The position numbers and the translations under genes are program-made. The notes under the pieces are model-generated. The model was not told where the DNA came from, made no database searches, and was given only the letters and a program-made list of their open reading frames with translations. A stretch of 64,000 nt of DNA from Candidatus Nomurabacteria bacterium. GTDB taxonomy: Bacteria > Patescibacteriota > Minisyncoccia > Phycocordibacterales > UBA9973. How positions within the stretch are numbered: position 1 is the stretch's first letter; every line of letters starts with the position of its first letter. Location: the NCBI GenBank assembly GCA_023267275.1, contig JAHFNO010000005.1, positions 9,462 to 73,461 of the forward strand. The letters run 5' to 3'. Positions 24,359 to 61,279 of this stretch are shown here, piece by piece.

Positions 24359-24367
24359 AATTTTTAG

Positions 24368-25003: not shown

Positions 25004-25064
25004 TGAGTTTTTTATCCCCACTTGCATGATTTTAAGAGAGGTGTACACTGCGAGAGTAGTTAAT

Positions 25065-25240
25065 AAAAAAATAGTTTGTGATTGGGGAAGTGAGGTTTGA
25101 ATCCTCCACAGTGCCGCTACGGTGATACCAAGACTCTCTTGGGAAGTCCGAATGCCAATCATAAATAGTGTGTCCCGAGCAGGAAATGTAGCGCGTGTTA
25201 AGCGCTCGTCTCTACAAAGTCCCTCGGAAGGGATTTTTTT
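25065..25240 (+). ncRNA. Cobalamin riboswitch with intrinsic-terminator expression platform
   Basis: tGGGGAAGTGAGGTTTGAATCCTCC...ACGGTGATAC...GGGAAGTCCGAATGCCAATC parallels the T. tengcongensis AdoCbl aptamer (GUGGGAAAGUGACGUGAAAUUCGUCC...ACGGUUAUACUCCGAAUGCCACC). Ends in the tccct-cgga-aggga hairpin plus T7 at 25220-25240, ~80 bp upstream of the DUF4430 gene. Confidence 0.75.
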
Positions 25241-25263
25241 GTTGTACAAATCTCGGTTTCTCC

Positions 25264-25305
25264 AATATCCGTTTTCACAAGTGGCCACTTGTGAAAACGG
25301 ATATT
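25264..25305. promoter_or_regulatory. Perfect 42-bp palindrome between riboswitch terminator and DUF4430 start
   Basis: aatatccgttttcacaagtgg/ccacttgtgaaaacggatatt with 21-bp arms and no mismatch. Contains TCACA-N10-TGTGA. No flanking T-run, so not a classic terminator. Confidence 0.4.
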
Positions 25306-25321
25306 AGAAAGAAGAAAAAAT

Positions 25322-25837
25322 ATGCATAAAAAATACACAATTTTCTCAGTTATTATTTTTGTTGCGATTCTCGCAGGCTTTTTTGCTATGACAAAAAAGC
25401 CTGCGCAAACACCAGCAGTTACTCCATCTACTCCTCCTGTATCTGTTGTACAAAATATCGGAGCGACAAAAAAAGAAACTCCCGCAACGCCTCCTTCAAC
25501 ACAAATCACAGAGAAAGATTCTGTTGCGAAGCCAACTCTTTCAGTAAGTCCTGACACCACTACAATCAAGCTTATTGTTGGAGACGCAACAACATCTCTT
25601 TCGGCTCCAACAAACAGCTCTTTGTATCAGATGCTCAAGATTGCTCAAATGCAAGGACAAATTACATTTTCTGGAAAACAATATTCAGGACTTGGATTTT
25701 TTGTGACTGCAATCGGTGGTTTGCAAAGCGGGGGAGGAAAGAATTTGTTGTATTACATTAATGGCAAAGAGGCGTCGGTCGGCGTGTCTACCTATATTCC
25801 GCAAAACGGCGACGTTGTGGAGTGGAAATTAGAATAA
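25322..25837 (+). CDS. DUF4430 (transcobalamin-like beta-domain) lipoprotein/surface protein, putative cobalamin binder
   Basis: Signal-anchor then YQMLKIAQ...GLGFFVTAIGGL...LLYYINGKEASVGVSTYIPQNGDVVEWKL matches the DUF4430 pattern. Directly downstream of the cobalamin riboswitch. Confidence 0.6.
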   Translation: MHKKYTIFSVIIFVAILAGFFAMTKKPAQTPAVTPSTPPVSVVQNIGATKKETPATPPSTQITEKDSVAKPTLSVSPDTTTIKLIVGDATTSLSAPTNSSLYQMLKIAQMQGQITFSGKQYSGLGFFVTAIGGLQSGGGKNLLYYINGKEASVGVSTYIPQNGDVVEWKLE

Positions 25838-47467: not shown

Positions 47468-49183
47468 ATGAAATCGAAACTCGAAAAAATAATTAAAGAA
47501 TCACTCAAAAATCTTGGCATCGAAGCTGAGACTATTGTGCTTGAACATCCAGCTGAAATCGCCAATGGTGATTATTCTACGAGTGCTGCTTTGTCGCATG
47601 CGAAAGTGATGCAATCAAATCCTCGCGCGCTCGCAGAAAAGATTGTTGCTGAAATTGAAAAAAATAAGCCGGCCGAAATTGAAAAGATTGAAATCGCCGG
47701 ACCCGGATTTATCAACTTCTATCTTTCAAAAGATTTTTTTGCGTCACAAATACAAGCAATCGACTCAAACAACAATTGGGGAAGCAATGCATTATCTGCC
47801 GGCAAAAAAGTGATGGTGGAATACACCGACCCAAATCCATTCAAGCCATTTCATATTGGTCATTTGATGACAAATGCAATCGGCGAATCCGTTGCGCGTA
47901 TTTTTGAATACTCAGGCGCAGAAGTTGTTCGTGCAAACTATCAAGGTGATGTGGGTTTGCATGTGGCAAAGGCTATCTGGGCAATGCTCAAAAATGGAAA
48001 AGGGGATACAACTCTTTCTGTAGAGACACAGGCTGAATATATTGGAAAGTGTTATACCGAAGCATCGGAAGCATACGAAAATGACGAAAATGCAAAAGCA
48101 GAAATCGATGCAATCAATAAAAAAGTATATGAACGCAGTGATAGAGATATAAATGTCATCTATGATTGGGGTAGAGCAGTCACACTCGAAGCCTTTGAAA
48201 CTATTTATAAAACACTCGGTACTAAATTCAATCCAAACTGCTATTTCTTTGAGAGTGTCATGGCGCCAATTGGCAAAAAGATTGTTGAAGAAAATATTGG
48301 CAAAGTATTTACTGAATCCGACGGAGCGATTGTGTTTAAAGCTGAAGAGCTTGATCCGAAATTGCACACTCGCGTATTTATTACCAAGCAAGGATTGCCA
48401 ACATATGAGACTAAAGAGATTGGTCTTACGGTAACAAAGTTTACTCAGGAAAATCCTGATACTTCTATTGTGGTGACAGCTATTGAACAGGGTCCATACA
48501 TGGAAGTAGTACAAAAAGCACTTTCACTTATTCATCCCGAATACGAATCTCGAATGAAGCATGTCACCCACGGCATGATGCGTTTTGCTTCTGGAAAAAT
48601 GAGTTCACGAAAAGGTAATGTCATTACTGGTGAATCGCTTCTCTCTGATGCGTATGCTTTGGTATACGAAAGACTTGCCGAACGCGAACTCAACGACGAA
48701 CAAAAGAAAGTTATCGCACGAGAAATCGGCGTGGCTTCTATCAAGTATGCCATTTTGAAACAAGCACTCGGCGGAAATATTATTTACGATCAAGAAAAAT
48801 CAGTTTCGTTTGAAGGTGATTCCGGTCCATACTTGCAGTACACGGCAGTGCGAGCGCAGTCAGTACTTGAAAAAGCAAAAGCATTTGGACTTTCAACTTT
48901 CAACTTTACACTTTCGACTTCTTTCGAGACTACAGGTCTCGAAAGGTATTTGTACCGATTCCCAGAGGTTGTTGAACATGCACATGAAAAATTGGAACCA
49001 CATCATATTGCGCAATATCTTTTGGAACTTGCCTCGGCATTTAATTCTTTTTACACAATGGGAAAAATTGTTGATGGAAGCGACACAACTTCACCATACA
49101 AACTCGCCCTCACTGAAGCATTTGTAAAAACAATGAAAAATGGTTTGTATTTGCTTGGTATTGAAGTGCCAAACAAGATGTAA
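47468..49183 (+). CDS. argS: Arginine--tRNA ligase
   Basis: N-terminal add-1 domain, PFHIGHLMTNAIG (HIGH), GKMSSRKG (KMSKS-like), C-terminal DALR anticodon-binding region. Confidence 0.95.
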   Translation: MKSKLEKIIKESLKNLGIEAETIVLEHPAEIANGDYSTSAALSHAKVMQSNPRALAEKIVAEIEKNKPAEIEKIEIAGPGFINFYLSKDFFASQIQAIDSNNNWGSNALSAGKKVMVEYTDPNPFKPFHIGHLMTNAIGESVARIFEYSGAEVVRANYQGDVGLHVAKAIWAMLKNGKGDTTLSVETQAEYIGKCYTEASEAYENDENAKAEIDAINKKVYERSDRDINVIYDWGRAVTLEAFETIYKTLGTKFNPNCYFFESVMAPIGKKIVEENIGKVFTESDGAIVFKAEELDPKLHTRVFITKQGLPTYETKEIGLTVTKFTQENPDTSIVVTAIEQGPYMEVVQKALSLIHPEYESRMKHVTHGMMRFASGKMSSRKGNVITGESLLSDAYALVYERLAERELNDEQKKVIAREIGVASIKYAILKQALGGNIIYDQEKSVSFEGDSGPYLQYTAVRAQSVLEKAKAFGLSTFNFTLSTSFETTGLERYLYRFPEVVEHAHEKLEPHHIAQYLLELASAFNSFYTMGKIVDGSDTTSPYKLALTEAFVKTMKNGLYLLGIEVPNKM

Positions 49184-49679
49184 CCTAGCAAGGTTACTCT
49201 TGGAGTATAAATTTAGCAAAATCACCTACTGGGTAGCCATCTTGTAGGTTTTTGCTGTTTGGTTTTAGGTTTTAGGAAATACAAAAAACCGGCCTCCATG
49301 GAAGACCGGTTAATAAAATGAAAGGCAAATCACGCACAATGCCGCGGCGCTAATGTGCGATTGGTGATTTACACTTCCGCGCGTACGATACGATGTTTTT
49401 TGCGATAAAAGCAGCCGTTCGCTCCGCCTTTAAGGAATTAAAGCATCTTGCTTAACATATTAATCACTCTCGTTTGAAAGTCAATCCTTGATAAATAAAA
49501 AATGGGTAAATAAAAAACCGGCTCTTTTGGAACCGGTAAGATGCATAAGGTGGGAATAAAAAAGAAGAATTATGGAAACTTAAAAAATGGTTGCTGAGAG
49601 CATCTTTGGTACAAGGATATTCCTTAATTATTCATCCGTCAAACGCTTTACATAAAATGATAATTTAGTATTATAAACG

Positions 49680-50065
49680 CAGAAGCGATGAAGGGGCCCC
49701 GTCCGAGTAATCTGGGCAGGCATCACCCCTTCGCCCGCCTCACTTTGTGAGTCAGGCAAGCTTTGGGAAGAAATGTTTGACGATAACCTTAAACTTATCA
49801 GTCGGGCACGTAGAGCCCTGTAAATAAGGTGATTTGTATTTTTGAATTTTCTTCCCCTCCTTGACGAGGAGGGGATAAAGGGGAGGTGATTTGAATTCAT
49901 AGTCACCCCTCCTCAATCCTCCCCTCAATAAGGGGAGGAAGAATACAAATACAAACACGAAACAAGGTGGTACCACGATTTCTTGTATAAAAAAGAAACC
50001 CGTCCTTGCAACTATGACTTAACTTGTCGTAGTGCGAGGACGGGATTTTTAATTATTTCACTGGA
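49680..50065 (+). ncRNA. T-box riboswitch leader of ileS, apparent Ile (AUC) specifier
   Basis: AAACAAGGTGGTACCACG matches the T-box consensus AANNNGGGTGGNACCGCG. Followed by the terminator aaacccgtccttgc...gcgaggacggg + ttttt directly upstream of ileS. Candidate specifier ggcAUCAcc in a 5' stem; TTTACA-N17-TATTAT promoter near 49637. Confidence 0.6.
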
Positions 50066-50261
50066 GAATTTTTGATAATTATTTTATAAAACAAAATAAA
50101 TATCGGAGTTGTTAATACGCAAGCAAGCAAAAATTTATTGTTACCACTTATGTTGAGTGTGTTAACAAAAGGTGCAAGCCATTTAATTTCAATAAATACA
50201 AGTAATAATAAACTGAGTCGCATAAAAATAAGTTTTCTTCACATTATCATAAATAAAGTAT

Positions 50262-53200
50262 TTGTCAAATATGGAAAACACAGAACAAAAAAAATCAGCA
50301 TCGGCAGAACGTGAAGAAAAAGTTCTTTCTTTTTGGAAGGAGAACAATGTTTTCGAGGAATCGCTCAAGAAAGAATCACCGAAAGGCGAGTTCGTGTTTT
50401 TTGAAGGTCCGCCAACAGCAAACGGAAAACCCGGCATTCACCATCTTGAAGCGCGCGCATTCAAGGATGCAATTCCTCGTTACAAAACCATGCAGGGATT
50501 TCATGTTCGCCGAAAAGGGGGGTGGGATACACACGGACTTCCTGTGGAGCTTCAAGTAGAAAAAGCACTCGGACTCAATTCGAAAAAGGCGATTGAGGAA
50601 TATGGTATTGAAAAATTCAACGAACAGTGTAAAGAATCTGTCTGGCAATATCTTTCCGTTTGGGAAAAATTCACCGACCGTATCGGATATTGGGTGGATC
50701 AAAAAAATCCGTACGTAACCTATCACAACGATTATATTGAATCTGTTTGGAACGTACTCAAAAAAGTAAATGATCAAGGTCTTGTATACAAAGACTATCG
50801 CATTGTGCCGTGGTGCCCGCGTTGTGGAACTGCGCTTTCTTCACACGAGCTTGCTCAGGGATATCAGGACGACCGTGACTTGTCGGTCACGGCCAAGTTT
50901 AAAGTCATAAAGTCGAAAGTCGAAAGTCCGGAAAATACATACATTCTCGCTTGGACTACTACGCCGTGGACACTGCCGGGGAATGTCGCGCTTGCAGTGA
51001 ATAGCAGTATACAGTATGCGGTATACAGTATTCAGTATGAAAATGGAAACAAAGAAAATCTTATTCTTGCAAAAGATCTTGCTGAAAAAGTTCTTGTCGG
51101 ACAAAAATATGAAGTTGTAAAAGAAATATCGGGCGAAGAATTGGTTGGTATTGAATACGAGCCTTTGTATCCATTTCTTTCTAAACTCCTAGAGCCTAAT
51201 AAACTAGCGCCTGCATTTAAGGTATATGCTGCAGATTTTGTAACCACGACAGATGGAACCGGAGTAGTGCACACCGCTGTCATGTATGGAGCTGACGACT
51301 TCGAACTTGGTACAAAGCTCGGTCTTCCAAAAGTTCATACGGTCAATCCGGACGGAACATTCATGTCGAATATGGATTTTTTGTCGAACCGATTTGTAAA
51401 AGACGAAGATGTAGCTGTCGATATCATTAAAGACCTCGCGCATCGCGGACTTTTGTTTAAGAAAGAAAAATACGAACACTCATATCCTCATTGTTGGCGT
51501 TGTAAAACTCCGCTCATTTATTACGCGCGAGATTCTTGGTATATCCGCATGAGTGATGGAAAAATAAAGGAGCAACTCATCGAAGAAAACAAAAAAATAA
51601 ACTGGGAGCCAAATTATATTCGTGACGGTCGCTTTGGTGAATGGCTCAAAGACATCAAAGATTGGGCGATTTCCCGTGAGCGTTATTGGGGAACACCGCT
51701 ACCTATCTGGATGACGGAATCTGGGAAAATCGAAGTACTCGGTTCTCTCGCAGAAATTCGCGCAAAGACAAAAAAGTCTGGCAACACGTATTATGTTGTT
51801 CGACACGGACAAGCCGACCACAACCTCACCGGCATGGCGAGCTCAAGTCCCGATGAACCAGTACATCTCACTGAGCTCGGTAAACAACAAGTTGCAGCTC
51901 AAATTCCAAAGCTCAAAGAGTCTGGTGTTGATTTGATTATTTCTTCACCGTTTATTCGTACGCGCGAAACCGCAGAAATTCTTCGTGATGGAATCGACGG
52001 CGGTATTGAACTCATGTTTGATGAGCGTCTTCGTGAAATGGATATTGGTGTATACAACAAGGGAACATGGCAAAAATATCACGATGATTTTCCAAAGACC
52101 GTAGAAAATTTTGATAAAGCTCCAGAGGGTGGGGAATCGTATCAGACAGTCAAAAACTGGATGATGGATTTTATGCACGATGTGGAAATAAAATATCAAA
52201 ACAAAAAAATTCTTATTGTGACGCACGGTGGCCCCGCATGGCTTTTGATGGCTGGAATACAAGGACTTGATGCCGAACAATCGCTTGAAATGATTCGCGA
52301 TAAAAAAGATTTTCATTATTTCCAGAATGCCGAAGTGCGTGAAGTACCCTATGTTCCATTTCCTCACAACGAACGTTGGGAGCTCGATGTGCATCGTCCA
52401 TATATCGACCAGATACAGCTTGTATCAGAAACTGGCGAACCAATGACACGTGTGAAAGAAGTGATGGATGTCTGGTTTGATTCAGGTGCGATGCCGTTTG
52501 CACAAGATTATTATCCGTTTGAAAACAAGGCACTTGTTGATGGTGCTGGATATCCTGCCGACTTTATTTGTGAAGCTATCGACCAGACTCGAGGATGGTT
52601 TTATACACTGCACGCAGTGGGAGTGTTGATGGGGCGCGGCCTCGCATACAAAAATGTTATTTGTCTTGGACATATTCTCGACAAGGAAGGAAAGAAGATG
52701 AGTAAGTCACTCGGCAACATTGTCGATCCATGGGAGATGATTGAAAAATATGGTGTAGATACACTTCGTCTTTGGATGTATTCGGTCAATCAGCCAGGTG
52801 AATCAAAAAACTTTGACGAAAAAACAGTCGCTGAATTGCACAACAAAGTATTCAATCTTTTGTATAACGTTTTAGCTTTTTATGAATTGTATCGTGACAC
52901 AAATCTCGAATCTCAAATCTTGAATCACGAATCAAGTGGTACAGGATACAAGATACAAGATTCAAGCAACGTTCTCGATCAATGGATTGTTGCGCGACTC
53001 GGACAACTCACTGCAACAATGACGGAAAATCTTGATGCATATAAATTGCTTGAGCCAGTACGTGCACTTCGAGAATTCATCGACGACCTTTCGACATGGT
53101 ATGTACGCCGCAGTCGCGATCGAATGAAGGCTAATCCGCGAAACGCGGACGCCCGATCTAGCGAAGCTGGATTTAGGGATGGTGATGTTGAAGCAAAGCA

Positions 53201-53804
53201 GACACTGTATTTTGTATTGAAAACAATCGCAAAATTGATGGCACCATTTGCACCATTTGCTGCGGAAGATATCTGGCAGAAATTGAAGAGAGAGGGAGAT
53301 GAGGCAAGTGTGCATTATACAAAGTGGCCGCAGGAACAGGTTCTAGGTTCTAGTGGTAAGGTTCTAGAAGAAATGGAAGTGGTCAGAAAAATCGTTACTC
53401 TTGGTATGGAAGCGCGACAGAAAGCTAAAATCCCAGTACGACAACCACTCAACGAGTTGAAAGTTGAAAGTGGAAAGTTGAAAGAAGAATACATTCAAAT
53501 CTTGAAAGATGAATTGAATGTAAAGAGTATTTCCCAAACACCAAACACCAACCAGCAAGAAGCTAGTGTTGTACTCAACACTGAAATTACTCCCGAGCTT
53601 AAGCGCGAAGGAGAATACCGCGAGCTTGTTCGTGCTATTCAAGATATGCGCAAGAAACAAGGACTTACTCCAAGTGATGTAATCAGCCTTACTCTTCCAG
53701 AAAATACAAAGGAAACGATTGTTGGTTTTGAAGACGAATTGAAAAAAACAGTTCTTGCACAAACGATTGCTTTCAGTGGTGAAGAGATACTTGTACAGAA
53801 ATAA
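50262..53804 (+). CDS. ileS: Isoleucine--tRNA ligase carrying an internal histidine-phosphatase (PGAM-like) domain insertion
   Basis: HIGH-type PTANGKPGIHH, editing domain TTPWTLPGN, KMSKS; about 1180 aa. A ~200-aa insertion with YVVRHGQADHN...SSPFIRTRETAEIL...ILIVTHGG sits between WGTPLPIW and DVWFDSGAMP at ~51780-52330. Confidence 0.9.
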   Translation: MSNMENTEQKKSASAEREEKVLSFWKENNVFEESLKKESPKGEFVFFEGPPTANGKPGIHHLEARAFKDAIPRYKTMQGFHVRRKGGWDTHGLPVELQVEKALGLNSKKAIEEYGIEKFNEQCKESVWQYLSVWEKFTDRIGYWVDQKNPYVTYHNDYIESVWNVLKKVNDQGLVYKDYRIVPWCPRCGTALSSHELAQGYQDDRDLSVTAKFKVIKSKVESPENTYILAWTTTPWTLPGNVALAVNSSIQYAVYSIQYENGNKENLILAKDLAEKVLVGQKYEVVKEISGEELVGIEYEPLYPFLSKLLEPNKLAPAFKVYAADFVTTTDGTGVVHTAVMYGADDFELGTKLGLPKVHTVNPDGTFMSNMDFLSNRFVKDEDVAVDIIKDLAHRGLLFKKEKYEHSYPHCWRCKTPLIYYARDSWYIRMSDGKIKEQLIEENKKINWEPNYIRDGRFGEWLKDIKDWAISRERYWGTPLPIWMTESGKIEVLGSLAEIRAKTKKSGNTYYVVRHGQADHNLTGMASSSPDEPVHLTELGKQQVAAQIPKLKESGVDLIISSPFIRTRETAEILRDGIDGGIELMFDERLREMDIGVYNKGTWQKYHDDFPKTVENFDKAPEGGESYQTVKNWMMDFMHDVEIKYQNKKILIVTHGGPAWLLMAGIQGLDAEQSLEMIRDKKDFHYFQNAEVREVPYVPFPHNERWELDVHRPYIDQIQLVSETGEPMTRVKEVMDVWFDSGAMPFAQDYYPFENKALVDGAGYPADFICEAIDQTRGWFYTLHAVGVLMGRGLAYKNVICLGHILDKEGKKMSKSLGNIVDPWEMIEKYGVDTLRLWMYSVNQPGESKNFDEKTVAELHNKVFNLLYNVLAFYELYRDTNLESQILNHESSGTGYKIQDSSNVLDQWIVARLGQLTATMTENLDAYKLLEPVRALREFIDDLSTWYVRRSRDRMKANPRNADARSSEAGFRDGDVEAKQTLYFVLKTIAKLMAPFAPFAAEDIWQKLKREGDEASVHYTKWPQEQVLGSSGKVLEEMEVVRKIVTLGMEARQKAKIPVRQPLNELKVESGKLKEEYIQILKDELNVKSISQTPNTNQQEASVVLNTEITPELKREGEYRELVRAIQDMRKKQGLTPSDVISLTLPENTKETIVGFEDELKKTVLAQTIAFSGEEILVQK

Positions 53805-53806: not shown

Positions 53807-54430
53807 ATGGAAAAGAAAAAATTGGTTATCTTTGATTTTGATGGAGTACTCGTAAATACGACCGATCTCACTTTTGCTCTTCATAAAAAAGCCAATCCCG
53901 GTTTTACAAAAGAAATTTTTCAGTCATTTGAGGAAGGTAATTTTCATGAAAATTACTGGAAGGCAGTAGAGGAAGGAAGACATGTTCATCCAGAAAGATT
54001 TTTTGAAGATTATGGTGATGGAATCATTCATCTTTCAACACACGATGTAATCAATCATCTCATTACCGATCTTTTCCAAAAATATGAATTGATAGTATGT
54101 TCTTCAATGGAAAGCAGATATATCGACAAGAAGCTTACTAGTGAAAATATTCGAAATAATTTTTCTGAAATTCTCGGGATGGATGTACACCGTAGTAAAG
54201 TTGTAAAAATAAACAAAGCATTACATGAACGCGGTATTTTGCCTACCGATGCTATTTTTATTACTGATACCATTGGTGATATTCGTGAAGGGAGAGAATG
54301 CGGAGTATCGTCAATCGGAGTCACTTGGGGAATGCAAAACAGGACAAAGCTCGAAAGCGAGAATCCATTTGCTGTAGTAGACACCGTACAGGATTTAGAG
54401 CAGGCAATAGAACGATTCTTCCTACATTAA
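53807..54430 (+). CDS. HAD-superfamily hydrolase
   Basis: LVIFDFDGVLVNT (motif I DxDG), ITDTIGDIREGRECG (motif IV). Confidence 0.8.
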   Translation: MEKKKLVIFDFDGVLVNTTDLTFALHKKANPGFTKEIFQSFEEGNFHENYWKAVEEGRHVHPERFFEDYGDGIIHLSTHDVINHLITDLFQKYELIVCSSMESRYIDKKLTSENIRNNFSEILGMDVHRSKVVKINKALHERGILPTDAIFITDTIGDIREGRECGVSSIGVTWGMQNRTKLESENPFAVVDTVQDLEQAIERFFLH

Positions 54431-54611: not shown

Positions 54612-55193
54612 ATGTTTGATAAACATCAACGTATTCGTATAGGGCAGGAGATTATGCGTGACCATTTTGTGCAGATTGGTGACACCACCGAGATTTTTCT
54701 CGGTGCACTAAAAGGCTTTCGACGCGACCTCGCTCTTTCTTCAAAGGCAACATTCGGAAATATTCGCGGAGAATTTATTGAAACCGCCACGATTATTGCT
54801 GTGCCTCCGCTCTCCGACGGAATGAGTCTTTCCAACTTGAGTGCAATGCTCACACTCTGCACGCAGGCTTTTTTTGGGACAATCGCCATCGATATTCCGG
54901 AGACAATGACAGAAGAGGAAAAGAACTATTTTTTGGAAGAGCTTGATGTCACACATACAAATCTTATGGCTGTATCTGAAACTGCAACACAGTTGTATCA
55001 ATCTATAAAAGAAACTGGTTTTGATTTTGATGTATTCAACACTGAAAATATTGAAAACGAACACACGGAATGCAATATTTTGTTCAATCGTGACGCCCTC
55101 AATCTCGCAATGGAAACCGCGCGAGCGCTTGCCGAACGTGCGGTACGACTCGATATTGATTTAATGGAAAGCCGTGAATCACTAGAACAATAG
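54612..55193 (+). CDS. Hypothetical protein; stop codon lies inside the 8-bp tandem array
   Basis: 193-aa ORF with no recognised domain. Ends ...SLEQ with its TAG at 55191-55193 inside the repeat. Confidence 0.5.
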   Translation: MFDKHQRIRIGQEIMRDHFVQIGDTTEIFLGALKGFRRDLALSSKATFGNIRGEFIETATIIAVPPLSDGMSLSNLSAMLTLCTQAFFGTIAIDIPETMTEEEKNYFLEELDVTHTNLMAVSETATQLYQSIKETGFDFDVFNTENIENEHTECNILFNRDALNLAMETARALAERAVRLDIDLMESRESLEQ

Positions 55194-55322
55194 AACACTA
55201 GAACAATAGAACAATAGAACAATAGAACAATAGAACAATAGAACAATAGAACAATAGAACACTAGAACAATAGAACAATAGAACACTAGAACACTAGAAC
55301 AATAGAACACTAGAACAATAAA
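55181..55322. repeat. Tandem array of about 17 copies of the 8-bp unit (A/C)(A/C)TAGAAC
   Basis: actagaac aatagaac actagaac aatagaac x7 ... read directly from 55181 to ~55322. Lies between the hypothetical gene and the YdeN-like gene. Confidence 0.9.
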
Positions 55323-55334
55323 ACAAAAAAACAT

Positions 55335-55925
55335 ATGAATGACAAAAAAGTATTTATGGTGCACGGATTTCGAGGAGAGCCCAATGGAGGATGGCGTCCT
55401 TGGCTTATGGGTCAGCTCGCAAAAGCGGATGTGTATGCGTGTGCTCTTCCAATGCCAACACCAAGCGATCCAATCAAAGAAGAATGGATTAAAGAAATAC
55501 AGCACGCCATTCCAAACCCCAATGAAGATATTTTTCTCGTTGGACACAGTCTTGGAGTGCCTGCAATTTTAAACTATCTTGAGTCTTTACCAGAAGGGGC
55601 TAAGATTGGCGGAGCAGTGCTTGTTTCTGGACCAATCGAAAAAATTGATACTGAAAATCCTGATTCAAAATTGAGAAAAATCGATCATTTTTTTCACGAT
55701 TTCGATTTTAATAAAATTAAAAATTCTTGTTTACAATTTTCTGTTATTCACGGAGATAATGACCCGAAAGTTGTTTTTGAAAACCACGCGATACCTCTTT
55801 CAGAAAAACTTTCTTGTGAGCTGATTTCTATTCCGAACGGAGGTCATTTAAATGGTAATTCGGGATGGTACGAACTTCCTGAAGCATTTACTGCATTGAT
55901 GCATTTCCTAACACCTAACACCTAA
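55335..55925 (+). CDS. RBBP9/YdeN-family alpha/beta serine hydrolase
   Basis: VFMVHGFRGEP...WRPWL...LVGHSLG (nucleophile elbow), C-terminal His region. Confidence 0.7.
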   Translation: MNDKKVFMVHGFRGEPNGGWRPWLMGQLAKADVYACALPMPTPSDPIKEEWIKEIQHAIPNPNEDIFLVGHSLGVPAILNYLESLPEGAKIGGAVLVSGPIEKIDTENPDSKLRKIDHFFHDFDFNKIKNSCLQFSVIHGDNDPKVVFENHAIPLSEKLSCELISIPNGGHLNGNSGWYELPEAFTALMHFLTPNT

Positions 55926-55944: not shown

Positions 55945-56523
55945 ATGCATCACATTCATCACAGCGAAGCTTTTGTGCTTGGTTCTCGACCGAAAGGGGA
56001 GGATTCAAAAATACTTATTCTCTATACTCGTGAACTCGGGCTCATTTATGCGCATGCGCAAGGTATCCGAAAAATTTCTTCGAAGCTCCGTTTTGTATTG
56101 CAAGATTTTGCTCGCGTGCAAGTAGATCTGGTTCGCGGAAAAGAAATTTGGCGTCTCACGACGGCGTCGCCGATTGCCTCACACAAAGAAATTTCTCGTT
56201 CACCCAAAGCTGAGCGCATCGTTGCACATATCGCTTCGCTTCTTATTCGACTAGTCACAGGGGAGGAAGCCAACGAAGAAGTTTTTCGCGCAATCACTCG
56301 TGCGTATGATTTACTTGCCTCGTCAAATGACACGACAGATTATCGTGTCATCGAATTGCTTTCCGTAGCACGCATTCTTGTGGCGCTCGGCTATATTTCC
56401 CGTGATGTGCTTGGTGTTGAAGAGGAAGGTACTCACGAGGCACCAAAAGCATTTGCAGATATTGCGTACCAACATCGCCTTATTCGTGATATCAATCAGG
56501 CACTCTCGGCGAGTCAATTGTAG
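55945..56523 (+). CDS. recO: DNA repair protein RecO
   Basis: EAFVLGSRPKGEDSKILILYTRELGLIYAHAQGIRK.SSKLR matches the RecO N-terminal OB-fold signature. Confidence 0.7.
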   Translation: MHHIHHSEAFVLGSRPKGEDSKILILYTRELGLIYAHAQGIRKISSKLRFVLQDFARVQVDLVRGKEIWRLTTASPIASHKEISRSPKAERIVAHIASLLIRLVTGEEANEEVFRAITRAYDLLASSNDTTDYRVIELLSVARILVALGYISRDVLGVEEEGTHEAPKAFADIAYQHRLIRDINQALSASQL

Positions 56524-57905: not shown

Positions 57906-58280
57906 GTCAATTTTTTCATTCGTCTTATTTTTCCAACCACCAAGAATTCTACCCACTTCTTGAATTTTTTCGGATAGTTCGGCGTATGGTTTATCTTTGA
58001 TAAGCTTGTTTTCCCATGCGATTTGGAGAAAGTATTTCAGTAAATCATTTTTGTTTATTGCAGTCACAATGAGAGGACTTTTGTTTTCGAGAGTGGCATA
58101 ATATGCTTGATAGATGACTTCAAGCAAATCTAAAAAATGCGTTTCAATTCTCGCTCCGGTTGTGTATCGGGAAGTCCTTGGCATATGAGGAACGACAGTA
58201 TTCGTCCACAATGCGAATGCTTCCTTGGCTCTCATGACTACACTTGCATTATCGAGAGAGAGAGAGTAAGGTTGCATCAT
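57879..58280 (-). CDS. avd: Avd-like four-helix-bundle protein (23S rRNA IVS-protein family), DGR accessory variability determinant
   Basis: ARIETHFLDLLEVIYQAYYA...LLKYFLQIAWENKLI...YAELSEKIQEVGRILGGW matches the four-helix-bundle IVS/Avd family. Divergent from and abutting the RT gene. Confidence 0.65.
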   Translation of the reverse strand: MMQPYSLSLDNASVVMRAKEAFALWTNTVVPHMPRTSRYTTGARIETHFLDLLEVIYQAYYATLENKSPLIVTAINKNDLLKYFLQIAWENKLIKDKPYAELSEKIQEVGRILGGWKNKTNEKIDRQKQSMTR

Positions 58281-59309
58281 AATTTTGCCAGTATAACATC
58301 TCTTGAAAATATTTTGATTTCATGGAGAGAGTTTTTGTGTGGAAAAAAGAAACGTAAAGATGTGGGTATATTTGCGATGCGACTATCTGATAATCTTATA
58401 TCACTTTCGTTTGAGTTAAAAAATAAAACATATGTTCATCAAGGATATGTCGCATTTAGGATTAATGATCCCAAACCACGGGACATTCATAAGGCGAGTG
58501 TGCGTGATAGGCTTGTACACCATGCGATACATAGAATTTCATACCCATATTTTGACCAGAAATTCGATTTCAATTCTTTTTCTTGCAGAAAATGTAAGGG
58601 TACACACAAAGCACTGTATCGTTTTGAAAAATTCAGTAATATCGTCTCAAAAAACGACACTCGCACCTGTTGGGTATTGAAATGCGACATCAGAAAATTC
58701 TTTGCGAATATCGATCACACAATTTTGAAAGAAATTCTGGCAAAGCATATAGAAGACGTAGACATTCTTTGGTTGTTCGGAGTAGTGATTGATAGCTTCA
58801 ATACAAAATGCACCACCCCACCACTCCTCATTCAGCAGAATGACCCTGGGGGTAAAGTACAGGAGGGGAAAACACAAAGAAAAAAAGGATTGCCACTCGG
58901 CAATCTCACTTCGCAACTTCTTGTGAATATCTATATGAACGAATTTGACCAGTATATGAAGCGAGAATTGAAAGTGAAACATTACATCCGCTATGCTGAT
59001 GATTTTGTAATATTAAGTGAGGATAAAACATATTTAGAAAATTTACTACCACAAATTGCAGAATTTTTGGGAACAAAACTTAAACTCTCACTTCATCCTG
59101 ACAAAGTGTTTATCAAAACACTCGCATCCGGTGTAGATTTTCTCGGTTGGGTACATTTTCCGAATCATCGAGTTCTCCGTACTGCGACCAAACGGAGAAT
59201 GGTGAAGAATATACGGAAAAATACAAAACCAGAAACGCTTGCTTCATACAAGGGAATGCTGAGTCATGGGAATGGGTATAAACTCACGCAACAGATTGAA
59301 AGAATTTAA
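58137..59309 (+). CDS. DGR reverse transcriptase; 5' boundary uncertain
   Basis: RT motifs: LPLGNLTSQLLVNIY ([ILV]GxxxSQ, a DGR-RT signature), YADDFVIL (YxDD); N-terminal ITSLENILISWREFLCGKKKRKDV resembles the bRT N-terminus. The listed ORF start overlaps avd. True start probably an alternative TTG near 58272 or ATG at 58185. Confidence 0.85.
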   Translation: MRFNSRSGCVSGSPWHMRNDSIRPQCECFLGSHDYTCIIERERVRLHHNFASITSLENILISWREFLCGKKKRKDVGIFAMRLSDNLISLSFELKNKTYVHQGYVAFRINDPKPRDIHKASVRDRLVHHAIHRISYPYFDQKFDFNSFSCRKCKGTHKALYRFEKFSNIVSKNDTRTCWVLKCDIRKFFANIDHTILKEILAKHIEDVDILWLFGVVIDSFNTKCTTPPLLIQQNDPGGKVQEGKTQRKKGLPLGNLTSQLLVNIYMNEFDQYMKRELKVKHYIRYADDFVILSEDKTYLENLLPQIAEFLGTKLKLSLHPDKVFIKTLASGVDFLGWVHFPNHRVLRTATKRRMVKNIRKNTKPETLASYKGMLSHGNGYKLTQQIERI

Positions 59310-59350
59310 TTTTGTTCATTGATTTTATGTTCTCGTGATATTATGACTAT

Positions 59351-61279
59351 ATGGGAGATGAGCAAAACGAATGGAATGCCGTGCATAATTTAGATGAAGT
59401 AAACGACCGATTGTATCGGCGTGATTTGGCTGGGCGAGTGGTACCACGAGCCGATGTGTTACATCAAAAACCAGAGCCTACGCCACGTGATTGGAACGAA
59501 GATACTATGAAAAAAAGTAAATTAGGAAATATAAAAATACACCACTCATTCTTCCGCAAATTCTTTTTTGTTTCGCTCGGATTTGCCGGAGTTGCGATTT
59601 TGTTTGCTGTCATCATGTTTTTTACCGGAGGCAATACTGTTTCGAATGCAAACATTGATATCAATGTTTTGGGTAATTCATTTACCGCTGGGGGAGAGGA
59701 ACTTCCACTGCAGGTAGAAGTAGTAAACAAAAATGCGAGCGCGCTCGAACTCTCAGATCTTTTTGTGGAATACGACAAGGGTGGCGATGCAACAAGTGGA
59801 GCAAGTCATGTGCGTGATTTGAATTCACTGGGTACTATCGATGCGGGAAAAACCGCAACCAAAAGTTTTTTTGTGACACTCTATGGTGAACAAGGAAGTA
59901 CAAAAAATGTTGATTTCACTTTGCAATATCGTTTGCATGGATCAAATGCAATTTTCGTAAAGAAGACGAGCTTTGTGGTGACGATAAATTCTGCACCTGT
60001 ATCACTTTCAGTAGATGGCCCAAAAACAATCACACCAAATCAAATGCTCACTTTTACAGTGAAGACGGTTTCAAATAGTAAGAATACACTTTCTGGAATG
60101 TTGCTTCATGTCGACTATCCAACTGGATTCAATTTTCAAAAAGCAGTGCCTGACGCAAACGCATTCAACAATGTGTGGAATCTCGGCGACCTTGCTCCTG
60201 GTGCTGAACGCGATATTGTTATTACTGGTACGGTATACGGACAAGATGGGGAAGATCGTGCATTTCATGTTTACACTGGCGCAGTAAGTGCTGACGATGC
60301 GACAAAGATTGGCGTTACATACAATTCATTGTTGCAAACCGTTTCTCTCGTGAAGCCATTTCTTGCTACACATTTGTCGATCAATGGATCAACAATCGAC
60401 CCAACTCCTGTGGGAAGTGGTAGTAACATAACTGTGGCTGTGACATATGCAAACAATTTGCCGACTCGTGTGACCGATGCATCTATCACTGTGCAGCTTT
60501 CTGGAAATGCATTGAATGCAGATAGTATTACGGTGCCAAAAGGATTTTATGATTCTGCAAAAAATACTATAACGTGGAATAAAACAACCGATGCTGATTT
60601 GGCCTCGATTGAACCTTCGGATCAAGGTGTGCTCAATTTTACATTAAGGACATTGCCACTCTGGTCTGCAGGATCAACACTTTCAAAACCAACAATAAAA
60701 CTCTCAGCAAGTATTACTGGTAAACAACCAGATCAAGGAGGCACAACAAATACCGTGACTGATTTTGAGGAAAAGACAGCGATTGTCGATTCTGATCTTG
60801 GATTTACTGGCGGTGCTTCATATGCGGCTGGACCATTTTCAAACACTGGACCGATTCCTCCAAAAGCAAACCAACCAACAACATACACAATCACCTGGAC
60901 GGTAACCAATTCTGCAAATGCGCTTGCCGACGGTCTTGCAACGGCAACATTGCCTACATATGTGGATTGGGTAGGAACAATCAGCCCAGCAAGCGAATCA
61001 CTTCAATATGATGCAACGACGAGCACGATTCGCTGGAATTTTGGACAGGTTCCAGCAGGAGCGGGAATTTCTGGTGCTTCACGAAGTGTTTCTTTCCAGG
61101 TACGTCTCAATCCATCTACATCTCAAGCGGGAAGTGTTCCAAAACTTGTGCTTGATACGACGGTTTCTGCTCGTGATACCTTTACTGGCACAATATTGAA
61201 TCTCACACGTGGGGCAATCTCAACTCAGTTGCAGAATGATCCTGGTTTTCCAGCCAATGGACAGACTGTGACTAAGTGA
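59351..61279 (+). CDS. Large membrane-anchored beta-rich surface protein, hypothetical
   Basis: Single N-proximal TM helix, then ~560 aa of Thr/Ser/Asn/Gly-rich beta-repeat-like sequence. No VR-like match to the TR. Confidence 0.55.
   Translation: MGDEQNEWNAVHNLDEVNDRLYRRDLAGRVVPRADVLHQKPEPTPRDWNEDTMKKSKLGNIKIHHSFFRKFFFVSLGFAGVAILFAVIMFFTGGNTVSNANIDINVLGNSFTAGGEELPLQVEVVNKNASALELSDLFVEYDKGGDATSGASHVRDLNSLGTIDAGKTATKSFFVTLYGEQGSTKNVDFTLQYRLHGSNAIFVKKTSFVVTINSAPVSLSVDGPKTITPNQMLTFTVKTVSNSKNTLSGMLLHVDYPTGFNFQKAVPDANAFNNVWNLGDLAPGAERDIVITGTVYGQDGEDRAFHVYTGAVSADDATKIGVTYNSLLQTVSLVKPFLATHLSINGSTIDPTPVGSGSNITVAVTYANNLPTRVTDASITVQLSGNALNADSITVPKGFYDSAKNTITWNKTTDADLASIEPSDQGVLNFTLRTLPLWSAGSTLSKPTIKLSASITGKQPDQGGTTNTVTDFEEKTAIVDSDLGFTGGASYAAGPFSNTGPIPPKANQPTTYTITWTVTNSANALADGLATATLPTYVDWVGTISPASESLQYDATTSTIRWNFGQVPAGAGISGASRSVSFQVRLNPSTSQAGSVPKLVLDTTVSARDTFTGTILNLTRGAISTQLQNDPGFPANGQTVTK

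What the first reader, a model, noticed from the sequence alone, without database searches (positions are those of the whole stretch)
51775..52440. Isoleucyl-tRNA synthetase with an embedded histidine-phosphatase (PGAM-like) domain
Between the conserved IleS segments WGTPLPIW and DVWFDSGAMP the protein carries about 200 extra residues. They have the full branch-1 histidine phosphatase signature: RHG (YVVRHGQADHN), SSPFIRTRETAEIL, and the second catalytic His in ILIVTHGG. E. coli IleS has only ~55 aa at this position. An aaRS with an inserted phosphatase domain is unusual. It may act on a nucleotide, Ap4A-like or tRNA-linked phosphate. A second free-standing histidine phosphatase is encoded at 24368-25003.
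Basis: seen in the sequence. Interest (0 to 1): 0.65.

Follow-up and report, generated by a model that had tools for sequence, protein, structure and literature searches.

The report
Phosphatase domain nested inside isoleucyl-tRNA synthetase
In a large group of tiny, probably symbiotic bacteria (Patescibacteria/CPR), the enzyme that loads isoleucine onto tRNA carries a complete, apparently active phosphatase spliced into one of its surface loops. Related bacteria keep the same phosphatase as a separate gene directly in front of the synthetase gene, so the two probably work together, on a substrate that is still unknown.

Summary
ORF 50262-53804 is one continuous 1180-aa type-2 IleRS. A roughly 205-aa segment (aa 503-707) sits in the loop of the small Zn-knuckle element after WGTPLPIW. 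This segment is a complete branch-1 histidine phosphatase (Pfam PF00300, E 2e-34; AF2 pLDDT about 90).

It is not an artefact. At least 348 species-level Patescibacteria genomes have the nested domain. The four catalytic residues (R514, H515, R566, H655) show one substitution across 178 nested copies, and the proton donor E592 is Glu or Asp in all.

In related Patescibacteria whose IleRS lacks the insert, the orthologous roughly 190-aa phosphatase is a free gene that abuts ileS (50 of 53 loci), usually after argS. Trees of the IleRS core and of the domain indicate that nesting at the same loop arose or was lost more than once. Related domains are also fused to ValRS (four copies), ArgRS and TsaC.

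The substrate is unknown. My best guess (about 0.3) is a synthetase-partnered phosphohydrolase that removes a phosphorylated by-product of adenylate formation (PPi, then AMP). Rivals are tRNA-end repair and an unrelated metabolic phosphatase or mutase that is merely co-inherited.

I found no paper describing this, so I rate it a new variant of a known kind. The second phosphatase at 24368-25003 is a CobC-like gene in a B12 cluster and is unrelated.

The parts
50262..53804 (+). ileS: type-2 isoleucyl-tRNA synthetase with nested phosphatase, 1180 aa. TTG start at 50262; the database copy P0001 is 1177 aa, i.e. ATG at 50271.
   Evidence: TIGR00392 scores 896.8 bits (cut-off 621.4). Foldseek of the full AF2 model gives TM 0.78 to 8c8w and 0.88 to 1ile, normalised to target.
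50430..50444 (+). Class I signature motif in the non-canonical form P-G-I-H-H (GXHH instead of HXGH).
   Evidence: P57 H60 H61 invariant, G58 I59 at 90% or more. The motif is described as conferring mupirocin hyper-resistance in IleRS2 in PMC10485003.
51687..51767 (+). WGTPLPIW plus the first half of the small Zn-knuckle element (CP3 position). The CxxC pair has been lost here (MTESG). This part includes GSLAEIRA, the last IleRS residues before the insert.
   Evidence: Alignment with insert-less and insert-bearing relatives.
51768..52382 (+). Inserted segment, aa 503-707: short linker (KTKKSGN), histidine-phosphatase domain, linker (PFPHNERW).
   Evidence: delimitation. AF2 pLDDT is 82-96 through this stretch, including both junctions.
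51792..52286 (+). Pfam His_Phos_1 (PF00300) match, aa 511-675.
   Evidence: E 1.9e-34. Foldseek of the insert-only model gives TM 0.62-0.70 to GpgP, PspA, PhoE and CobC.
51801..51809 (+). R514-H515-G516: the RHG motif with the nucleophilic histidine.
   Evidence: R and H are present in 172 of 172 ungapped nested domains.
51957..51959 (+). R566, the second phosphate-binding arginine.
   Evidence: 178 of 178.
52035..52037 (+). E592, the putative proton donor.
   Evidence: 172 Glu and 6 Asp among 178.
52224..52226 (+). H655, the second catalytic histidine (THGG).
   Evidence: 176 of 177.
52383..52496 (+). Resumption of IleRS: ELDVHRPYID ... (CxC pair lost: SET) ... DVWFDSGAMP.
52695..52709 (+). 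KMSKS motif, intact.
   Evidence: K811-S816 invariant.
47468..49183 (+). argS, the conserved upstream neighbour of the phosphatase/ileS unit.
   Evidence: Translation. argS lies upstream in 47 of 59 insert-bearing loci and in 34 of 48 free-phosphatase loci.
49184..50261 (.). ORF-free gap at the place where sister lineages carry the free phosphatase gene. No remnant of that gene is detectable.
   Evidence: no ORF; tblastn of four free phosphatases: nothing.
55945..56523 (+). recO (N-terminal domain match), the conserved downstream neighbour.
   Evidence: recO lies downstream in 60 of 66 loci.

Best explanation
**What it is (shown)**
- It is the housekeeping type-2 IleRS of a Patescibacteria (Paceibacteria/Parcubacteria-type) bacterium.
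- A complete PhoE/CobC/PspA-like histidine phosphatase is nested in the loop of the small Zn-knuckle element that follows WGTPLPIW (the CP3 position of class Ia synthetases).
- The IleRS motifs (GXHH signature, editing-domain motifs, KMSKS) are intact.
- All four canonical phosphatase residues plus the proton-donor Glu are intact.

**Where it came from (shown, except direction)**
- The domain is the orthologue of a ~190-aa free-standing phosphatase.
- In related Patescibacteria this phosphatase is encoded immediately upstream of an insert-less ileS, often overlapping its start, and usually downstream of argS.
- The phosphatase and IleRS have diverged together.
- The nested state occurs in at least two separate IleRS lineages, at the same loop.

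**How it most likely works (inferred)**
- The phosphatase is a physical and functional partner of the synthetase. It is non-covalent in some lineages and covalent here.
- It acts as a phosphohydrolase through a phospho-His515 intermediate, on a terminal phosphoryl group generated or bound at the synthetase.
- The most likely substrate class is the phosphorylated by-product of adenylate formation. Pyrophosphate is the first choice, because it is the one product released by every fusion partner seen (IleRS, ValRS, ArgRS, TsaC). AMP is the second choice.
- Removing it locally would pull amino-acid activation and editing cycles forward.

**My confidences**
- Anatomy and orthology: above 0.95.
- Functional coupling to IleRS: about 0.65.
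- By-product (PPi or AMP) as substrate: about 0.3. The confidence value given for this explanation is this last, most specific figure.
For: **Architecture and integrity:**

**Active site under purifying selection**
- Across 178 nested copies down to ~30% identity: R514 172/172, H515 172/172, R566 178/178, E592 172 Glu + 6 Asp, H655 176/177.

**Clade-wide distribution**
- All 120 best homologues carry PF00300.
- At least 348 species genomes have it, named Nomurabacteria, Kaiserbacteria, Adlerbacteria, Taylorbacteria, Zambryskibacteria, Vogelbacteria, Paceibacterota and others.
- It is colinear in 80 of 80 loci.

**Orthologous free gene**
- The closest non-IleRS relatives are ~190-aa Patescibacteria proteins.
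- In 6 of 6 long contigs the order is argS-phosphatase-ileS(931-976 aa)-recO.
- In metagenome loci, ileS starts directly downstream in 50 of 53 cases and argS is upstream in 34 of 48. The distance is mostly -10 to +20 nt.
- Insert-bearing loci have no free copy within 6 kb.

**Co-divergence and recurrence**
- In the IleRS-core NJ tree (932 columns, 200 bootstraps), a second nested clade (G2) is monophyletic at 100%.
- G2 is sister to insert-less IleRS at 98%, inside a clade separate from the query type at 100%.
- The domain tree supports the same deep split at 86%.
- G2 domains are 45-64% identical to the free protein P0271 but only 28-38% identical to the query insert.

**Partner census among the 150 best 50%-cluster representatives**
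- 101 are IleRS, some with two copies.
- One is a ValRS with four copies, three of them after WGHRIPVWY, the homologous loop.
- One is ArgRS.
- Two are TsaC.
- One is a protein made only of two tandem phosphatase domains.
- The remaining 44 have no second domain. Most are ~190-aa free-standing proteins, and some are short fragments of nested IleRS.
- No partner outside the synthetases and TsaC was seen.
- TsaC fusions recur in 4-5 clusters.

**Rigid docking**
- Both linkers are short and confidently modelled, and whole-protein pTM is 0.79. This suggests a fixed, docked module rather than a floppy tether.
Against: - No substrate was tested, and none can be read from the sequence.
- The nearest characterised enzymes act on varied small phosphomonoesters at only 22-28% identity: phosphoserine, glucosyl-3-phosphoglycerate, alpha-ribazole phosphate, a riboflavin intermediate.
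- No NCBIfam equivalog cut-off is reached.
- I know of no branch-1 histidine phosphatase shown to be a pyrophosphatase, and I did not find one.
- The association is far tighter with IleRS than a general PPi or AMP scavenger would need.
- TsaC in Patescibacteria is fused to many different domains (Ogt-type DNA-binding, TruB, 2H phosphoesterase, NUDIX, GNAT). This weakens the TsaC link as functional evidence. ArgRS fusion is explained by adjacency alone.
- A precedent exists for a CobC-like histidine phosphatase fused to a nucleic-acid enzyme whose phenotypes are independent of the partner: mycobacterial RnhC (bioRxiv 10.1101/2022.11.09.515703).
- The query and its nearest relatives have Trp at position 633, where 175 of 178 copies have Arg.
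Confidence: 0.3

Rival explanations
1. **Unrelated metabolic enzyme that hitch-hikes.** The domain is a housekeeping small-molecule phosphatase or short dPGM-type mutase, for example the phosphoglycerate mutase reported missing in some Parcubacteria, or a phosphoserine phosphatase. Its gene happens to lie in the argS-ileS operon. Fusion and nesting only secure co-expression or stability, and there is no chemical link to aminoacylation.
For: - Structural and sequence neighbours are all small-metabolite enzymes.
- The domain hits the 194-position archaeal dPGM model NF038349 at 78 bits.
- Jaffe et al. [quoted passage not shown]
- The RnhC precedent shows functional independence of a fused histidine phosphatase.
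- Patescibacteria genes are often fused promiscuously, as the TsaC fusions show.
Against: - All equivalog cut-offs are missed by a wide margin: dPGM_arch 78 vs 225, PspA 57 vs 350, CobC 90 vs 163.
- Co-expression alone does not explain nesting inside an essential enzyme in two lineages at the same loop.
- It does not explain tandem copies at the homologous loop of ValRS.
- It does not explain second copies at another IleRS site.
- It does not explain 94% adjacency to ileS over wide divergence.
- 1:1 stoichiometry with a synthetase is odd for a glycolytic enzyme (inference).
Confidence: 0.25
2. **tRNA-end phosphatase.** The domain removes a 2'- or 3'-phosphate (or the terminal phosphate of a 3'-pyrophosphate) from the CCA end of tRNA. 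It thereby restores a chargeable end on the very enzyme that binds that end.
For: - The partners IleRS, ValRS and ArgRS all bind the tRNA 3' end in the domain that carries the insert.
- In other Patescibacteria, TsaC is fused to TruB and to 2H/CPDase-type phosphoesterases (PF13563, PF07823). These enzymes open 2',3'-cyclic phosphates to monoesters, which then need a monoesterase.
- The second-best NCBIfam hit is the RNase H/acid phosphatase family.
- From my own knowledge, not checked here: toxic RelA-SpoT homologues pyrophosphorylate tRNA CCA ends.
Against: - No histidine-phosphatase-superfamily enzyme acting on polynucleotide ends is known to me.
- A repair enzyme tied to one synthetase would serve only tRNA-Ile.
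- TsaC itself does not handle the tRNA 3' end.
- The second insertion site in two-copy IleRS lies next to the anticodon-binding domain, far from the acceptor end in sequence terms.
- The geometry could not be checked.
Confidence: 0.15
3. **Protein phosphatase or regulatory module.** The domain dephosphorylates the synthetase itself or a partner, in the manner of PGAM5, Sts-1 or SixA. It would protect or regulate the synthetase against inhibitory phosphorylation, for example by HipA-like kinases that target synthetases.
For: - Branch 1 contains protein phosphatases and a phosphohistidine phosphatase (family knowledge).
- There is a weak N-terminal match to SixA (33.9 bits).
- A cis-tethered arrangement and multiple copies would suit self-protection.
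Against: - The SixA match is below its cut-off (74.5) and covers only the RHG strand.
- The pair behaves as a conserved core gene pair in hundreds of species, unlike toxin-antitoxin-type systems.
- No kinase gene is seen in the conserved neighbourhood.
Confidence: 0.08
4. **Mainly structural module.** The domain works as a docking, oligomerisation or tRNA-affinity module, like the appended domains of eukaryotic synthetases. Catalysis would be irrelevant or vestigial.
For: - Multiple copies per protein in ValRS and in some IleRS.
- Histidine phosphatases commonly dimerise (family knowledge).
- The domain is rigidly packed in the model.
Against: Every catalytic residue is essentially invariant over deep divergence, including the proton donor, which is not needed for mere binding.
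Confidence: 0.07
5. **Artefact.** The insert results from an assembly chimera, frameshift or mis-joined contig.
For: None found.
Against: - The reading frame is continuous.
- There is no compositional break.
- The identical architecture appears in independent assemblies from NCBI, ENA, JGI and Logan and in 80 of 80 genome loci.
- The AF2 model is confident through both junctions.
Confidence: 0.01

Closest known systems
Small branch-1 histidine phosphatases: B. stearothermophilus PhoE (1ebb/1h2e), Hydrogenobacter PspA (4ij5), CobC (6nru/6e4b), mycobacterial GpgP Rv2419c (4pz9/6s2q), riboflavin-pathway HFP (9mmh)
   Same: - Same fold: Foldseek TM 0.62-0.70, E about 1e-13.
- Same catalytic set: RHG, second Arg, Glu, second His.
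- Same ~190-200 aa size, without the dPGM C-terminal tail.
   Different: - Only 22-28% identity, and below every NCBIfam equivalog cut-off.
- It forms its own Patescibacteria subfamily with an N-x-Y motif before RHG.
- It is always linked to ileS, as a neighbouring gene or as a nested domain. None of the known enzymes has that context.
Type-2 IleRS with the GXHH signature (Priestia megaterium IleRS2 and its GVHH mutant 8c8w; Thermus thermophilus 1ile)
   Same: - Best sequence and structure matches: E 8e-234, TM 0.78-0.88.
- Same domain order, same C-terminal DUF5915-type domains, and the GXHH motif described in PMC10485003.
   Different: - Those enzymes have about 18-20 residues where this one has about 215.
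- The four Zn-knuckle cysteines present in 8c8w and in many relatives are lost in the query.
NCBIfam NF040702 'isoleucine--tRNA ligase, N-acetyltransferase domain-containing' (ileS_w_GNAT)
   Same: It is another catalogued IleRS that carries an extra enzyme domain (model name seen).
   Different: - It carries a different domain (GNAT).
- Judging from the profile positions matched, the domain sits elsewhere in the protein.
- The query scores 342 against a cut-off of 1999, so it is not a member.
Mycobacterial RnhC / Rv2228c (NF005567, bifunctional RNase H / acid phosphatase)
   Same: - A CobC/PhoE-like histidine phosphatase is covalently joined to an enzyme of nucleic-acid metabolism.
- It is the second-best NCBIfam hit of the insert (82 bits).
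   Different: - It is an end-to-end fusion, not nested.
- The partner is RNase HI.
- The phosphatase phenotypes are independent of the partner.
- The score is far below the cut-off of 326.
CP1 editing domain of class Ia synthetases
   Same: It is a hydrolytic domain nested in a loop of the Rossmann-fold catalytic domain, which is a conceptual precedent for the architecture.
   Different: - Unrelated fold and chemistry: it hydrolyses aminoacyl esters, not phosphate esters.
- It is universal and ancient rather than clade-specific.

Membership tests
Histidine phosphatase superfamily, branch 1 (Pfam PF00300) | Profile match above the curated gathering score | tested here: met
   119.5 bits in the whole protein and 123.6 bits for the excised segment, against a cut-off of 21.7.
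Histidine phosphatase superfamily, branch 1 (Pfam PF00300) | RHG motif with the nucleophilic His, a second Arg, an acidic proton donor and a second His | tested here: met
   R514, H515, G516, R566, E592 and H655 are present. They are essentially invariant in 178 nested copies and in the free-standing family, where the donor is E or D.
Histidine phosphatase superfamily, branch 1 (Pfam PF00300) | Alpha/beta fold of the PGAM/PhoE type | tested here: met
   The insert-only AF2 model has pLDDT 88.3. Foldseek gives E about 1e-13 and TM 0.62-0.70 to PhoE, PspA, GpgP and CobC.
Histidine phosphatase superfamily, branch 1 (Pfam PF00300) | Phosphatase (or mutase) activity through a phospho-histidine intermediate | not testable with these tools
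   This needs an enzyme assay with an H515A control.
Cofactor-dependent phosphoglycerate mutase (dPGM; NF038349, TIGR01258 and others) | Score at or above the equivalog cut-off | tested here: not met
   dPGM_arch scores 78 against 225, pgm_1 scores 15.7 against 81.7, and GpmB scores 57 against 261.
Alpha-ribazole phosphatase CobC (TIGR03162 / NF011580) | Score at or above the equivalog cut-off; cobalamin gene context | tested here: not met
   89.6 against 162.9, and 54.8 against 250. The context is argS/ileS/recO. The window's cobalamin cluster has its own separate phosphatase at 24368-25003.
Phosphoserine phosphatase PspA (NF045917) | Score at or above the equivalog cut-off | tested here: not met
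   56.8 against 350, and 24% identity to 4ij5.
Isoleucyl-tRNA synthetase (TIGR00392) | Equivalog score at or above the cut-off | tested here: met
   896.8 against 621.4.
Isoleucyl-tRNA synthetase (TIGR00392) | Class I signature motifs (HIGH-type and KMSKS) and the editing-domain motifs | tested here: met
   - GIHH at aa 58-61, the documented IleRS2 variant of HXGH (PMC10485003).
- KMSKS at aa 812-816.
- WTTTPWT at aa 231-237, and GTGVVH at aa 332-337.
- All are invariant or nearly so in A1.
Isoleucyl-tRNA synthetase (TIGR00392) | Isoleucine-specific aminoacylation of tRNA-Ile | not testable with these tools
   Whether this is the only ileS in the genome could not be checked, because only 64 kb is available.
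Type-2 IleRS (IleRS2) | Closest to IleRS2 structures, type-2 C-terminal domains, no C-terminal Zn-binding domain of IleRS1 | tested here: met
   - 8c8w and 1ile match at E about 1e-231 to 1e-234, whereas IleRS1 (1ffy, 8c9f) matches at about 1e-96.
- PF19302 is present at the C-terminus.
- The GXHH motif is reported only in IleRS2.
Acquired mupirocin-resistance IleRS MupA / MupB (NF000257 / NF000258) | Score at or above the exception-model cut-off | tested here: not met
   751 and 750 against a cut-off of 1900.

The most novel reading that the evidence does not exclude
The phosphatase is an obligate catalytic partner of class Ia synthetases in Patescibacteria. It performs a step that other bacteria assign to a separate housekeeping enzyme or do not need at all. 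Two versions fit the evidence:
- (a) A synthetase-bound pyrophosphatase in organisms that otherwise conserve PPi.
- (b) A tRNA 3'-end phosphatase built into the charging enzyme. This would be the first example of tRNA-end repair integrated in an aminoacyl-tRNA synthetase.

Repeated, independent nesting at the same loop would then mark the docking site of a previously unknown synthetase-phosphatase complex.
Probability: 0.15. Interest if true: 0.85.

Novelty: new variant of a known kind. Interest (0 to 1): 0.6.

Why it matters
- Aminoacyl-tRNA synthetases are among the best-studied enzymes. New catalytic domains nested in their cores are rare and have historically revealed new steps of quality control, as the CP1 editing domain did.
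- Here a second, apparently active catalytic centre is conserved inside an essential synthetase in hundreds of species of a major, uncultivated bacterial radiation.
- The gene-pair and fusion pattern gives an unusually clean comparative argument that the two enzymes work together.
- If the partnership is catalytic, it points to a Patescibacteria-specific requirement in translation. Candidates are handling of PPi or AMP in cells with minimal nucleotide metabolism, or repair of tRNA ends.
- If it is not catalytic, it is a clear natural example of recurrent domain nesting at one permissive loop. That is useful for protein engineering of synthetases.
- It also flags a mis-annotation risk, because NCBI names many of these proteins only 'class I tRNA ligase family protein'.

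Tried and rejected
- **Recent duplication of the window's other phosphatase (24368-25003).** Rejected. It shares only 35% identity over 81 aa, and it sits between a PduO-type cobalamin adenosyltransferase and an AdoCbl riboswitch.
- **Pseudogene remnant of the free phosphatase in the 1078-nt argS-ileS gap.** tblastn found nothing. No Rfam family is there, including T-box (15.4 bits against 93).
- **Downstream HAD hydrolase (53807-54430) as a conserved partner.** Rejected. It is present in only 3 of 66 loci.
- **Literature.** Seven searches were run: IleRS or aaRS with histidine phosphatase, PGAM, His_Phos_1, CPR and Patescibacteria. I also read two IleRS survey papers and one CPR aaRS paper. 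None mentions the insertion.
- **Canonical pyrophosphatase.** This is uninformative. The loci are all ileS neighbourhoods, about two hits would be expected even if every genome had ppa, and the queries may be imperfect.
- **The search for related loci with the diverse alignment A2.** It failed for lack of a conserved stretch. It was redone with A3 and A4.
- **afdb50 fold search.** The library was not available.
- **Model coordinates.** They are not exposed, so inter-domain geometry could not be measured.
- **First bootstrap run.** It timed out and was redone with a faster distance measure.
- **TsaC-fusion context (L090).** Uninformative: a P-type ATPase fragment and a PD-(D/E)XK protein.


Full report
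**1. Observation**

The + strand carries one open frame from 50262 to 53804 (1180 aa).
- WGTPLPIW, aa 476-483
- RHG within YVVRHGQADHN, aa 511-521
- SSPFIRTRETAEIL, aa 561-574
- ILIVTHGG, aa 650-657
- DVWFDSGAMP, aa 736-745

Profile searches agree with the reading:
- Pfam finds tRNA-synt_1 in two stretches (E 1.5e-116), with His_Phos_1 between them (E 1.9e-34, aa 511-675). Anticodon_1 and DUF5915 follow at the C-terminus.
- NCBIfam's ileS equivalog scores 896.8 bits against a cut-off of 621.4, again in two pieces.
- GC content shows no break at the junctions.

**2. Delimiting the insertion**

The closest solved structures are type-2 IleRS: Priestia megaterium IleRS2 (8c8w, E 8e-234) and Thermus thermophilus IleRS (1ile).
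- In the alignment to 8c8w, query residues 492-707 face chain residues 466-485.
- Insert-less IleRS from other Patescibacteria read WGTPLPIWECxKC...IGSxxELxEKSxxxx|DLHRPYIDxxxxxCxCG. This is a CxxC...CxC zinc knuckle with an 8-10-residue loop.
- The query and its relatives carry ...GSLAEL(K/R)xKTKKSGN-[about 190 aa]-P(L/F)PHNExYELDLHRPYID at that loop.
- The inserted segment is therefore aa ~503-707 (nt 51768-52382).
- By the order of elements, this is the CP3 position of class Ia synthetases. The CP core/CP1/CP2/CP3 nomenclature is used in PMC11685878. I did not verify residue ranges.
- Several insert-bearing relatives keep all four cysteines. The query has lost them.

**3. Is the protein plausible as a whole?**

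- An AlphaFold2 model built on 93 homologues has mean pLDDT 85.4 and pTM 0.79.
- pLDDT is 82-96 throughout aa 481-720, including both junctions.
- The model superposes on IleRS2 structures: TM normalised to target is 0.78 for 8c8w, 0.88 for 1ile and 0.85 for yeast IleRS.
- The insert modelled alone has pLDDT 88.3.
- That model matches small histidine phosphatases at E about 1e-13, TM 0.62-0.70 and 22-28% identity. These are GpgP/Rv2419c, PspA, a riboflavin-pathway phosphatase, PhoE and CobC (sequence-level equivalent).
- IleRS motifs are intact: GIHH signature, WTTTPWT and GTGVVH of the editing domain, and KMSKS.

**4. Not an artefact, and not peculiar to this genome**

- All 120 best homologues (61-100% identity, from NCBI, ENA, JGI and Logan assemblies) carry the IleRS domains plus PF00300. 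Where named, they are Patescibacteria, Nomurabacteria or Paceibacterota MAGs.
- Names include Nomurabacteria, Kaiserbacteria, Adlerbacteria, Taylorbacteria, Zambryskibacteria, Vogelbacteria, Parcubacteria and Minisyncoccia.
- In all 80 loci fetched, the N-part, insert and C-part are colinear on one strand.

**5. Active site**

Conservation was measured in 178 nested copies, which fall to about 30% identity with the query:
- R514: 172 of 172
- H515: 172 of 172
- R566: 178 of 178
- E592: 172 Glu and 6 Asp
- H655: 176 of 177

Such conservation over this depth argues for retained catalysis. There is one oddity. The query and its nearest relatives have Trp633 where 175 of 178 copies have Arg. I could not assess what this does.

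**6. Origin: a free gene in front of ileS**

- A full scan of 1.84 billion cluster representatives with the insert gave 988 hits at E 1e-10 or better.
- Of the best 150, 101 are IleRS, complete or fragmentary. Most of the rest are ~190-aa free-standing proteins.
- A profile of those free-standing proteins retrieves only ~190-aa Patescibacteria proteins.
- Their context is strikingly constant. In six of six long contigs the order is (smpB, infC-rpmI-rplT) argS - phosphatase - ileS (931-976 aa, no insert) - recO.
- A metagenome scan returned 80 loci: 60 with a free phosphatase and 20 with the nested form.
- Among the 60 free loci, ileS begins directly downstream in 50 of 53 evaluable cases, mostly between a 10-nt overlap and a 20-nt gap. 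argS lies directly upstream in 34 of 48.
- Conversely, insert-bearing loci show argS upstream in 47 of 59 and recO downstream in 60 of 66. None has a free copy within 6 kb.
- In the window itself the corresponding place is an ORF-free 1078-nt gap (49184-50261) with no detectable remnant.

**7. More than one nesting event**

- The 20 nested IleRS found with the free-family patterns have the domain at the same loop: WGTPLPIWQCKKC...IGSxxDLxxQxFSxNKYY...GELDFHRPYIDEVKFxCPxC.
- In the 15 complete ones examined, those domains are 45-64% identical to the free protein P0271 and only 28-38% identical to the query's insert.
- I built neighbour-joining trees of the IleRS core (insert removed, 932 columns) and of the domain (187 columns).
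- In the core tree this second nested group (G2) is monophyletic at 100% bootstrap.
- It is sister to insert-less IleRS that have a free phosphatase (98%).
- Both lie in a clade separate from the query-type enzymes (100%).
- The domain tree recovers the same deep split at 86% and is unresolved inside it.
- One insert-less IleRS with a free phosphatase (L003) falls among nested ones on the query's side, without strong support.

The synthetase and the phosphatase have therefore diverged together. The free and nested states have interconverted at least twice, at one loop. Within the second clade, one insertion is more parsimonious than two fissions. However, the direction is not proven: these are NJ trees with midpoint rooting and no outgroup.

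**8. Other partners**

Pfam and NCBIfam scans of unusual representatives show the following:
- IleRS with two phosphatase domains (P0194, P0177). The second lies between the catalytic and anticodon-binding parts.
- A ValRS fragment with four domains (P0145). Three are in tandem right after WGHRIPVWY, the homologous loop, and one is in the CP2 region.
- An ArgRS with a C-terminal copy (P0164, argS equivalog 405 bits against 262).
- TsaC (threonylcarbamoyl-AMP synthase) with a C-terminal copy (P0154, P0247).

The TsaC fusion recurs in four to five clusters. But Patescibacteria TsaC is fused to many other domains too: Ogt-type DNA-binding, TruB, 2H phosphoesterase, NUDIX and GNAT. That link therefore carries limited weight. 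The ArgRS fusion is expected from adjacency alone.

**9. What it does**

*Shown:*
- It is a structurally complete phosphatase under strong purifying selection.
- It is genetically inseparable from ileS.
- It has been repeatedly built into class Ia synthetases.

*Inferred:* the two proteins form a functional, probably physical, unit (my estimate 0.65).

The substrate cannot be read from the sequence. Every NCBIfam equivalog cut-off is missed: CobC 90 against 163, dPGM_arch 78 against 225, PspA 57 against 350, SixA 34 against 74.5.

Enzymes of this class attack terminal phosphoryl groups through a phospho-histidine intermediate. That excludes Ap4A-type and acyl-adenylate substrates on chemical grounds (family knowledge).

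The hypotheses, with my estimates:
- **By-product removal (about 0.3).** The only product that all observed partners release themselves is pyrophosphate, and AMP is the next common denominator. I take local removal of this by-product as the most likely single mechanism.
- **Unrelated metabolic phosphatase or short mutase that is merely co-inherited (0.25).** Jaffe et al. note PGM is undetected in some Parcubacteria (PMC7304191). The mycobacterial RnhC phosphatase domain acts independently of its RNase H partner.
- **tRNA 3'-end phosphatase (0.15).**
- **Protein phosphatase (0.08).**
- **Mainly structural module (0.07).**

**10. Comparison with what is known**

- The domain is a member of the histidine phosphatase superfamily, branch 1. 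Profile, catalytic residues and fold were all tested and met.
- It is not a member of any characterised equivalog family.
- The host protein is a type-2 IleRS with the non-canonical GXHH signature, which Brkic et al. tied to mupirocin hyper-resistance (PMC10485003).
- Extra enzyme domains in IleRS are not unheard of. NCBIfam has a model for a GNAT-containing IleRS.
- Nested hydrolytic domains are the essence of class Ia editing.
- Seven literature searches and three relevant papers gave no description of a phosphatase-bearing synthetase. One of those papers is a 2026 survey that built a database of about 96,000 IleRS sequences.
- Database pipelines do record the Pfam hit, but the proteins are named only 'isoleucine--tRNA ligase' or 'class I tRNA ligase family protein'.

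**11. Verdict**

- The function is open, with a reasoned but weakly supported mechanism.
- Novelty: a new variant of a known kind.
- Interest: 0.6.

Noticed in passing
window 50430-50444: The IleRS has the non-canonical class I signature GXHH (P-G-I-H-H) instead of HXGH. It is invariant in the 93-sequence alignment. This variant is reported to give type-2 IleRS hyper-resistance to mupirocin (PMC10485003). Most, but not all, related Patescibacteria IleRS share it; L003 has the canonical HYGH.
   Followed up: partly
window 21322-25837: This is a cobalamin-related cluster:
- ATP-cone ribonucleotide reductase (21322-23649)
- PduO-type cobalamin adenosyltransferase (23801-24358)
- the free-standing histidine phosphatase named in the finding (24368-25003, probably CobC-like)
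- an AdoCbl-II riboswitch (25075-25165, 37 bits against a gathering score of 36.5)
- a DUF4430 protein (25322-25837)

The cluster explains the second phosphatase without any link to IleRS.
   Followed up: yes
window 49184-50261 (hairpins at 49829-49958): This is an unusually long (1078 nt) ORF-free spacer between argS and ileS. It contains a 130-nt element that folds into very stable G/C-rich hairpins built from GGGGAGG/CCUCCCC arms (-60.3 kcal/mol, z = -6.3 against shuffles). No Rfam family matches; there are only sub-threshold microRNA-like hits. Relatives mostly have much shorter spacers here (median about 500 nt, some only 3-50 nt).
   Followed up: partly
window 55183-55326: There is a tandem array of 18 copies of the 8-nt unit TAGAACAA (93% matches). 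It lies between an unannotated 193-aa ORF (54612-55193) and a serine-hydrolase gene (55335-55925). It causes the strong AT skew seen there.
   Followed up: no
window 58137-61279: A reverse transcriptase gene (RVT_1, E 3e-23; 58137-59309) lies immediately upstream of a large DUF11/CLIPPER-type repeat protein (59351-61279). This could be a diversity-generating retroelement or a group II intron-type RT. No template or variable repeats were searched for.
   Followed up: no
window 52158-52160 (aa 633): The query and its closest relatives (about 72% identity or more) have Trp in the helix after GGES (VKNWMMDF). At this position 175 of 178 nested phosphatase domains have Arg. The effect on activity is unknown.
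   Followed up: partly
proteins P0392-P0500 (relatives of the TsaC fusion, not in the window): Patescibacteria TsaC (threonylcarbamoyl-AMP synthase) is very often fused to other domains. The most common is the Ogt-type DNA_binding_1 domain (PF01035). Others are TruB, 2H/CPDase phosphoesterases, NUDIX, GNAT and a methylpurine glycosylase domain. This looks like a systematic replacement of the Sua5 C-terminal domain and deserves its own study.
   Followed up: no
window 53807-54430: A HAD-family hydrolase gene starts 3 nt after the ileS stop codon. It is a second phosphatase-type enzyme next to ileS. However, it is conserved at this position in only 3 of 66 related loci.
   Followed up: yes
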